Below, piece after piece: positions 45,938 to 46,350 of a stretch of DNA of 64,000 nt. The stretch comes from Eledone cirrhosa (taxonomy: Eukaryota). Location of the stretch: positions 29,636,001-29,700,000 of the forward strand of contig OZ024750.1 of the NCBI GenBank assembly GCA_964016885.1, read 5' to 3'. Each line of letters begins with the position of its first letter. Position 1 is the first letter of the stretch. The notes under the pieces were generated by a model, which did not search any database, was not told the origin of the DNA, and worked only from the letters and a program-made list of their open reading frames with translations. The position numbers were made by a program, and so were the translations under genes.

Positions 45938-46350
45938 AATGTAGGAGGTGAGTTTTATTGTAGTACAATAAAGCAATGCAATGCAGATATCGGATAAGAA
46001 GCACTCTACAGTTTGTAGGACTGGAGTATACATAATATATAAGATCAAAAGATGGTTAAAGGAGTTCCATGTATTTTATTATGCGCATTTCAAAAACAAA
46101 CATCATCATGCAATAATATTTGTGTTTTCATCAGATAAAACAGGAGAACATGATATGAAGGCTAAAAGACACTTGTGGATAGTGCAGTTGATTTAAAACT
46201 GCACTATCCACAAGTGTTTTTTAGCCTTCATATCATGTTCTCCTGTTTTATCTGATGAAAACACAAATATTATTGCATGATGATGTTTGTTTTTGAAATG
46301 CGCATAATAAAATACATGGAACTCCTTTAACCATCTTTTGATCTTATATA
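45938..46350 (-). mobile_element. Foldback element with about 155-bp arms and two intact hammerheads
   Basis: Apex at about 46193. Plus HHR: UUUUAU CUGAUGA(46252-58), long stem II, GAAA(46295-98) UGCGCA UA/AUAAAA. Minus HHR at 46073-46140. Tail with GAGTGC (-) at 46001. Confidence 0.9.

What the first reader, a model, noticed from the sequence alone, without database searches (positions are those of the whole stretch)
45938..46350. Near-perfect hairpins with back-to-back hammerheads on both strands and a one-sided tail
45938-46350 (about 155-bp arms) and 55402-55855 (about 180-bp arms) each place an HHR on both strands, and only one arm extends into an 85-100-nt tail. This matches the inverted pseudo-LTR + pseudo-LTR + tail layout with no ORF between. 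In a read-through transcript the antisense arm would pair with and mask the ribozyme, which could act as a built-in off switch (inference). High arm identity suggests recent insertion.
Basis: partly seen in the sequence, partly recalled or inferred. Interest (0 to 1): 0.7.

Follow-up and report, generated by a model that had tools for sequence, protein, structure and literature searches.

The report
Penelope-end hairpins in TA microsatellites
The two DNA hairpins with a self-cutting-RNA motif on each strand and a one-sided tail are real and are two of many such units in this region; they are likely dead-end insertions of a known class of jumping gene (Penelope-like), and the pairing predicted to mask the ribozyme is likely a by-product of insertion, not a built-in switch.

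Summary
Observation confirmed. Arms pair at 154/155 and 183/185 positions, each carries a minimal type I hammerhead, and tails are 96 and 86 nt. The window holds 13 tail-bearing inverted units, nearly all at (TA)n. The layout (inverted pLTR, pLTR, one-sided tail, hammerheads on opposite strands) is published for Penelope-like elements, and this scan met it before in two shark-type genomes. No parent ORF was found, so the class rests on anatomy.

Masking is predicted (helix I probability 0), but only 2 of 13 units have an intact core in both arms and minimal hammerheads are reported inactive as monomers; a selected switch is unsupported.

Three additions. (1) Public contigs show many inversion joints, 12 of 15 listed landing on one fixed 5' start: hairpins likely form anew at each insertion. 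(2) Tails of eight sequence groups share a covarying bulged stem-loop, a candidate protein-binding signal. (3) One run shows clustered A>G/T>C on both strands, including the cleavage nucleotide, resembling A-to-I editing; that run is not on record as RNA.

The parts
45939..46034 (-). H1 tail (96 nt), ends at (TA)n
   Evidence: loose TA ends at 45939 in runs X1 and X5
46000..46027 (-). H1 tail stem-loop: ACUC/GAGU outer stem, 2-nt bulge, inner stem
46035..46189 (-). H1 tailed arm (pLTR copy, slightly shorter at its 5' end)
46080..46134 (-). H1 minimal type I hammerhead core, tailed arm; cleavage nucleotide at 46080
46187..46351 (+). H1 tail-less arm; begins at the family's fixed 5' start and owns the 7-nt loop 46190-46196
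46252..46306 (+). H1 minimal type I hammerhead core, tail-less arm
45891..45938 (.). (TA)n run left of H1
46345..46394 (.). (TA)n run right of H1, shared with the next unit
55402..55487 (-). H2 tail (86 nt), with stem-loop at 55460-55482
55488..55668 (-). H2 tailed arm; hammerhead core 55588-55539
55672..55855 (+). H2 tail-less arm; hammerhead core 55756-55805; runs into (TA)n
48087..48590 (+). Sister of H1 (about 90% alike): tail on the left interrupted by a SINE-like insert, short tailed arm, full tail-less arm with core 48491-48545
47679..47884 (-). Sister of H2: long tail-less arm (core 47777-47728) joined almost directly to the inverted tail
46396..46561 (.). Group C unit: tail plus short hairpin that turns inside helix II; no CUGANGA in either arm
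46605..46885 (+). Group E unit: inverted tail, very short tailed arm, long tail-less arm with core 46780-46829
47068..47395 (.). Group E2 unit: tail on the right, tail-less arm longer by 52 nt
56035..56211 (.). Group C unit next to H2
56247..56422 (.). Group D unit; hammerhead core sits in the 8-nt loop on the tail-less strand
25299..25506 (.). Group C unit
31030..31204 (.). Group D unit, tail on the right, tail-less arm longer
31288..31464 (.). Group D unit, tail on the left, tailed arm longer by 1-2 nt; core mutated in both arms
38497..38851 (.). Group F unit, tail on the left, tailed arm longer by 45 nt
62753..63010 (+). Group E single uninverted copy, arm plus tail; core 62818-62867

Best explanation
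Each unit is two head-to-head copies of a short hammerhead-bearing repeat, one with a tail, set in a (TA)n run; it is likely a protein-less insertion made by a Penelope-like retrotransposon, with the hairpin likely formed anew during each insertion and the predicted ribozyme masking likely a by-product. Inferred steps: the element's protein binds the tail stem-loop near the 5' end of its RNA and cuts a (TA)n run. Both cut ends prime reverse transcription, one at the tail end and one at the TA-like arm/tail junction. The cDNAs stop early or run off the RNA's 5' end, about 165 nt away in the H1 family. Their 3' ends are joined through 0-5 nt of self-complementary sequence, or one folds back. Two near-complete cDNAs give a near-perfect hairpin (H1, H2); one short cDNA gives a lopsided unit. 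Read-through transcripts would form 155-185 bp duplex RNA, a likely ADAR substrate.
For: Layout matches the published PLE arrangement (PMC8557442 passages; PMC3846280 passages); paired minimal hammerheads on opposite strands 100-700 bp apart are described for truncated PLEs (PMC4209133). A purified PLE protein cut and extended both DNA strands at AT-rich sites and started at two internal RNA sites that bound the tail (PMC11167929). In public contigs 15 of 15 listed joints run from varied points of the antisense tail or arm (45970-46140) to 46187-46193, 12 to exactly 46187, with T, AT, TAT or ATAT between; 4 start inside the tail; TA repeats hang off both the tail end and the arm end. Summed depth is 0.80 M on the tail, 2.20 M on the junction-near arm, 1.08-1.37 M on the far arm after folding, but only 0.044 M in the bin next to H1's centre, so no single hairpin junction is amplified as a unit. 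The copy at 48087-48590 has one ATAT at its centre, as two run-off cDNAs annealing would give. 28 of 32 unit ends lie within 6 nt of (TA)3+, against 9% of random positions (ends picked by eye, neighbours share runs). Tail stem-loop: 97.5% of cells paired, 4 of 8 pairs with two-sided changes; 23 of 24 inner cells paired for one copy per group, P=0.0003 by permutation; the model's 15 hits at E<0.01 are all catalogued tails, 4 of them not in training.
Against: No RT or GIY-YIG frame was found: 140 of 165 complexity-filtered frames gave one sub-threshold, unrelated Pfam hit; no genome is held; two metagenome scans were empty. Tails are 70-98 nt, longer than the published 30-40 bp. 31 further joints were not shown, and the laid stretch held only 49 nt of the second arm, which favours joints landing at the fixed start. 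The data do not separate two-ended priming from fold-back of one cDNA: both arms of H1 share the same letter at 8 of 8 checked family-variable sites, which fits one template, and group C turns inside the natural helix II, which fits snap-back. The copy at 47679-47884 has a tail-less arm that stops about 60 nt short of H2's start. That the fixed start is an RNA 5' end is untested; some contigs run on upstream of it.
Confidence: 0.8

Rival explanations
1. Same class, but each hairpin comes from one cDNA (or antisense RNA) that folds back and primes itself; the tail on one side is then cut off by the endonuclease.
For: Self-priming was proposed from palindromic junctions in rotifer Penelope (PMC3846280) and endonuclease resolution for the tail (PMC8557442). 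Tail-less arm is the longer in 7 of 9 units that could be polarised by eye. Arms share alleles at 8 of 8 sites. Three group C units turn inside helix II.
Against: Two units have the tailed arm longer (38497-38851 by 45 nt; 31288-31464 by 1-2 nt); 7 of 9 is weak (two-sided sign test about 0.18, by hand). Loops of 2-4 nt and joints without microhomology (31030-31204) fit end-joining. The H1 cDNA 3' end has no stable fold-back by DNA energy (0.0 kcal/mol).
Confidence: 0.35
2. The antisense arm is a selected off switch that holds the hammerhead inactive in read-through transcripts.
For: Full masking is predicted; the antisense arm is transcribed first on either strand (geometry); editing-like changes include the cleavage nucleotide 46080, and inosine there slowed an engineered hammerhead about 30-fold (PMC3923133 passage).
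Against: Intact core in both arms in 2 of 13 units; antisense arm length varies freely; helix I probability is 0.063 or less in five unmasked sister copies; monomer activity undetectable for a minimal PLE hammerhead (PMC4209133); a 155-bp perfect duplex offers no evident way to switch on.
Confidence: 0.06
3. The units are MITE-like or fold-back DNA transposons that move as whole hairpins and insert at TA.
For: Long inverted arms, no ORF, TA flanks, many copies.
Against: The termini are not inverted repeats of each other (tail on one side); internal junctions differ from copy to copy; lopsided and single-arm copies exist; hammerhead and RNA-type stem-loop are kept across groups.
Confidence: 0.04
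4. The palindromes are assembly or chimeric-read artefacts.
For: H1's own junction was not displayed in a listed contig; X1 may be the assembly's source sample; such structures trouble assemblers (PMC8557442).
Against: Inverted joints to the same fixed site occur in two samples (X1, X4); arms differ by substitutions and indels, 91-99% across units; the asymmetry is the same in several unrelated sequence groups.
Confidence: 0.03

Closest known systems
Canonical endonuclease-bearing Penelope-like elements (Penelope/Poseidon, Neptune, Nematis): inverted pLTR + pLTR + tail (PMC8557442, PMC3846280)
   Same: Head-to-head 5'-to-5' repeats, one arm shorter, palindromic junctions, tail at one end, hammerhead in the repeat, AT-rich or microsatellite target.
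   Different: No ORF or tandem body here; tails 70-98 nt, not 30-40; clade unknown because no parent protein was found.
Minimal type I hammerheads of metazoan PLEs (PMC4209133)
   Same: CUGANGA/GAAA core, long helix II, short palindromic helix III, dispersed single motifs and pairs on opposite strands.
   Different: H1 closes helix II with A-U, not the conserved G10.1-C11.1; H2 has G-C in the right arm only; activity untested.
PAc Poseidon element of Anolis in vitro (PMC11167929)
   Same: Two element end points (tail end, arm/tail junction), AT-rich target, ends not set by hammerhead cleavage, a stem-loop in the tail region.
   Different: There the stem-loop is AC-rich and at the start sites; here a bulged stem-loop starts 5-28 nt into the tail. 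Homology between the two was not tested.
Naiad elements (PMC8557442)
   Same: (TA)n target, inverted copies, one-sided tail.
   Different: Naiads lack canonical hammerheads and are described as long inactive in cephalopods.
Animal non-LTR retrozymes (bioRxiv 10.64898/2026.07.22.740005)
   Same: Short, non-coding, type I hammerhead, PLE-derived.
   Different: Retrozymes are head-to-tail tandem arrays; these are head-to-head pairs or single copies.
Palindromic Harbinger repeat of Xenopus as ADAR substrate (PMC5625713)
   Same: A self-complementary repeat that forms duplex RNA alone and is edited.
   Different: That is a DNA transposon repeat; editing here is only inferred from one run of unrecorded type.

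Membership tests
Canonical EN+ Penelope-like element | Single ORF with telomerase-like RT and GIY-YIG endonuclease (in the parent) | tested here: inconclusive
   None in 140 of 165 filtered frames of the window; no genome; metagenome scans empty. Truncated copies are not expected to hold it.
Canonical EN+ Penelope-like element | Inverted 5'-truncated copy adjacent head-to-head to a pLTR | tested here: met
   13 units in the window; joints in X1 and X4
Canonical EN+ Penelope-like element | Tail at one end only | tested here: met
   All 13 inverted units; length 70-98 nt in the 10 measured, longer than published
Canonical EN+ Penelope-like element | Type I hammerhead motif within the pLTR | tested here: met
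   10 distinct sites against 0 in 100 shuffles
Canonical EN+ Penelope-like element | AT-rich or microsatellite target; target duplication | tested here: met
   28 of 32 ends at (TA)3+; a duplication cannot be discerned within TA runs
Canonical EN+ Penelope-like element | Promoter and RNA start inside the pLTR (PMC2377424) | not testable with these tools
   Fixed 5' start seen; contigs cannot show an RNA start
Minimal type I hammerhead | Core CUGANGA and GAAA, NUH site, helix I, palindromic helix III | tested here: met
   helix III self-duplex -10.5 (H1) and -3.2 (H2) kcal/mol
Minimal type I hammerhead | G10.1-C11.1 pair closing helix II | tested here: not met
   A-U in both H1 arms; G-C in H2 right arm, U at 11.1 in H2 left arm. 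Described as highly conserved, not invariant.
Minimal type I hammerhead | Self-cleavage | not testable with these tools
   Needs an in vitro assay
Naiad | Absence of canonical hammerhead | tested here: not met
   Hammerhead present
Non-LTR retrozyme | Head-to-tail tandem units each with a hammerhead | tested here: not met
   Units are inverted pairs or single copies
MITE / fold-back DNA transposon | Terminal inverted repeats at both ends and a constant interior | tested here: not met
   One terminus is the tail; junctions vary

The most novel reading that the evidence does not exclude
These hairpins are the main product of a two-ended Penelope reaction: a bulged tail stem-loop shared by eight sequence groups is the protein's recognition signal, both cut ends of a (TA)n run prime short run-off cDNAs to the RNA 5' end, and the resulting mass of perfect hairpins both seeds new TA targets and supplies a major share of the host's ADAR-edited duplex RNA, with editing of A17 disabling the hammerhead.
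Probability: 0.25. Interest if true: 0.62.

Novelty: new member of a known kind. Interest (0 to 1): 0.32.

Why it matters
As found, it is an ordinary if abundant PLE footprint. It matters modestly because how PLEs make inverted repeats and tails is called an open question (PMC8557442), and thousands of short copies with a fixed 5' start, variable second arm and a covarying tail stem-loop give a ready dataset and specific mutants to test it. If the editing signal holds, PLE-end hairpins would be a large source of self-made duplex RNA in an animal group noted for hyper-editing (octopus host inferred from recalled SINE sequence and repeat make-up, not tested).

Tried and rejected
Own genome not held. 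Rfam: nothing at gathering score; at E<=10 only generic hairpin families, no hammerhead, over 45900-48700 and 33750-34000. Whole-window inverted-repeat tool was swamped by microsatellites; self-BLAST used instead. Parent search: Pfam on 140 of 165 frames and two exact-pattern scans of metagenome contigs found nothing. Run search: no RNA holder listed; rows with small shares that I did not lay are not used; X21 laid 0 reads, no test. A coding reading of the tails was dropped by eye: the shared residues come from the conserved stem-loop letters and one group has a stop straight after. Unit 31480-31656 was first counted as tail-bearing (note), then dropped after one search showed it to be a single tail-less arm. 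In one search two of 15 rows were mis-registered by the pattern (34 of 39 cells paired with them in); searches use 11 and 8 rows, leaving out identical, near-duplicate or broken tails. In one search the automatic arm alignments for 46605-46885 and 47679-47884 were spurious and were judged by eye. The depth profile cannot tell which arm is longer and is not a copy number. Single tails fold only weakly against shuffles (z -1.39, -1.65). Literature searches listed no paper on two-ended priming in PLEs, a conserved bulged tail stem-loop, or editing of PLE hammerheads; the library lacks most subscription papers, and Arkhipova 2006, Pyatkov 2004 and the supplements of PMC11167929 (Figs S1-S2) were not seen and may bear on this.

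Full report
Observation. Both hairpins are as described. H1 has arms 46035-46189 and 46197-46351 with 154 matches, 1 mismatch and a 7-nt loop; H2 aligns over 55483-55668 and 55672-55860 with 183 matches, 2 mismatches, 2 gaps and a 3-nt loop. Tails of 96 and 86 nt extend the left arms only. Each arm has a type I hammerhead core with a palindromic 6-nt helix III and a UA site, 5' ends toward the centre. The strict pattern matches 10 distinct sites in the window and none in 100 block shuffles. Rfam does not recognise them.

Surroundings. The window is microsatellite-rich animal DNA with no recognisable gene in 140 of 165 filtered frames. I read it as octopus-like from a recalled SINE and the repeat make-up; no call tests that, and no genome is held. 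H1 and H2 are 2 of 13 tail-bearing inverted units; with single arms and fragments there are 21 pieces, 7.7% of the window, in about eight sequence groups. They pile up: six units lie in 45939-48590 and four in 55402-56600, mostly separated by TA runs. 28 of 32 unit ends lie within 6 nt of (TA)3+, against 9% of random positions (ends picked by eye).

Public runs. Twenty runs of 15 studies hold part of H1. I laid four on 45938-46235: X1 and X4 (organism A, two samples; X1 may be the source), X5 (organism B) and X21 (0 reads, no test). All 15 listed joints lead from varied points of the antisense tail or arm to 46187-46193, 12 to exactly 46187, with T, AT, TAT or ATAT between; 14 are from X1, one from X4; 31 more rows are hidden, and the laid stretch held only 49 nt of the second arm. 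TA repeats hang off the tail end and the arm end. Summed depth is 0.80 M on the tail, 2.20 M near the junction and 1.08-1.37 M on the far arm after folding mirrored bins, and 0.044 M beside H1's centre. So the inverted layout exists at family level in more than one sample, one arm tends to start at a fixed site, and individual junctions are rare, as expected if each hairpin forms at insertion. H1's own junction was not displayed.

Polarity. Of the 13 units, 9 could be polarised by eye: the tail-less arm is longer in 7 and the tailed arm in 2 (38497-38851, 31288-31464); H2 and the three group C units could not be called. This is a lean, not a rule.

Tail structure. Tails share ACUC, a variable inner stem and loop, a 2-nt bulge and GAGU followed by RC, starting 5-28 nt after the arm end. 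On 11 tails 97.5% of cells pair and 4 of 8 pairs change on both sides; slid controls pair 23-56%; RNAalifold gives the same structure. With one tail per group, 23 of 24 inner cells pair, P=0.0003 over all permutations. The outer stem was used to find the motif, so only the inner stem is a fair test, and the groups are related. A model from these tails finds 15 sites at E<0.01, all catalogued tails, 4 not in training. Its role as the protein's recognition signal is inference from the PAc work, where reverse transcription starts at a stem-loop and the tail lies between two start sites (PMC11167929, parts 1-2 of 4 read).

Mechanism. Most likely a PLE protein cuts (TA)n, both ends prime cDNA (one at the tail end, one at the TA-like junction), the cDNAs stop or run off the nearby RNA 5' end, and their 3' ends are joined. 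The two-strand cutting and extension and the two start sites are shown for PAc in vitro; applying them here is inference. The single ATAT at the centre of the 48087-48590 copy fits two run-off cDNAs annealing. Fold-back of one cDNA, as proposed in PMC3846280 (passages), remains a close rival and may operate too, notably in group C; both H1 arms share letters at 8 of 8 checked variable sites, which is expected either way if one master was active.

The off switch. In all four full-hairpin transcripts helix I probability is 0.00, so masking is predicted. But it is 0.13 or less in three of four single-arm transcripts and 0.063 or less in five unmasked sisters; only H1+ reaches 0.56-0.71. Only H1 and H2 have an intact core in both arms; group C has no CUGANGA at all. 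Twelve of 15 listed joints leave the core partly or wholly uncovered (near-complete hairpins would be under-listed). A minimal PLE hammerhead did not cleave as a monomer (PMC4209133, parts 1-2 of 4), and PAc needed protein for cleavage and no cleavage for insertion. Masking is best read as a consequence of geometry.

Editing lead. Among 22 variant rows, seven are over five-fold more frequent in X4 than in X1, and all seven are A>G or T>C (7 of 11 such rows, 0 of 11 others; Fisher P=0.002, rows not independent). Five are A>G on the hammerhead strand (46072, 46076, 46077, 46079, 46080) and two on the opposite strand (46081, 46112), at 2-16% in X4 against 0-0.6% in X1, spread over 4-22 contigs each, none with G upstream. 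This matches ADAR action on duplex RNA (PMC5625713 passages), and 46080 is the cleavage nucleotide, where inosine slowed an engineered hammerhead about 30-fold (PMC3923133 passages). X4 is small (88 M letters) but is not on record as RNA and is a different sample, the signal is family-wide rather than H1's own, and duplexes could form between separate copies. It is a lead.

Comparison and novelty. The layout is published (PMC8557442 and PMC3846280, passages), as are paired opposite-strand minimal hammerheads (PMC4209133) and a promoter inside the pLTR (PMC2377424, passages). Recently active Penelope families are reported in Octopus vulgaris (PMC13282606, passages). Retrozymes are tandem (bioRxiv 10.64898/2026.07.22.740005, part 1 of 5) and Naiads lack hammerheads. 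Two earlier findings of this scan reached the same class in shark-type genomes. Membership is likely but the parent ORF is unseen, so no clade is named. The longer tails, fixed start, tail stem-loop and editing pattern were not in the listings of searches; supplements were not read. Verdict: real, a new member of a known kind, interest 0.32.

Noticed in passing
window 33832-33923 (+): Separate type I hammerhead with a long helix I (about 19 bp outer stem) and a 4-bp helix III; the 33815-33926 stretch folds at -38 kcal/mol, z -6.25. A better candidate for monomer activity; no Rfam hammerhead match.
   Followed up: partly
window 48180-48363: SINE-like insert inside the tail/arm junction of the H1 sister, bounded by a direct repeat of about 17 bp that looks like a target duplication.
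   Followed up: no
window 11148-11254: Hairpin with hammerhead-like core flanked by (TA)n on both sides and no tail on either arm.
   Followed up: partly
window 23218-23457: Hairpin of another group (97-bp arms, 46-nt loop holding a decayed core); no tail seen, SINE-like repeat adjoining.
   Followed up: partly
window 42829-42862 (+): Group C tail fragment joined straight to (TA)n with no arm, followed by a tandem repeat of about 70 nt.
   Followed up: no
window 45939-48590 and 55402-56600: Strings of six and four units separated mostly by TA runs, suggesting repeated insertion into runs left by earlier insertions.
   Followed up: partly
window 28886-30196: Long tandem array of a 30-nt unit, open in several frames.
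   Followed up: no
window 16341-16696 and 60004-60359: 356-nt repeat, 96% alike, in inverted orientation 43 kb apart.
   Followed up: no
window 24481-24855 (-): Frame resembling the C-terminal end of a LINE reverse transcriptase (recalled likeness; no Pfam hit).
   Followed up: no
window 33621-33758: Short inverted repeat with a (TA)n run at its centre.
   Followed up: no
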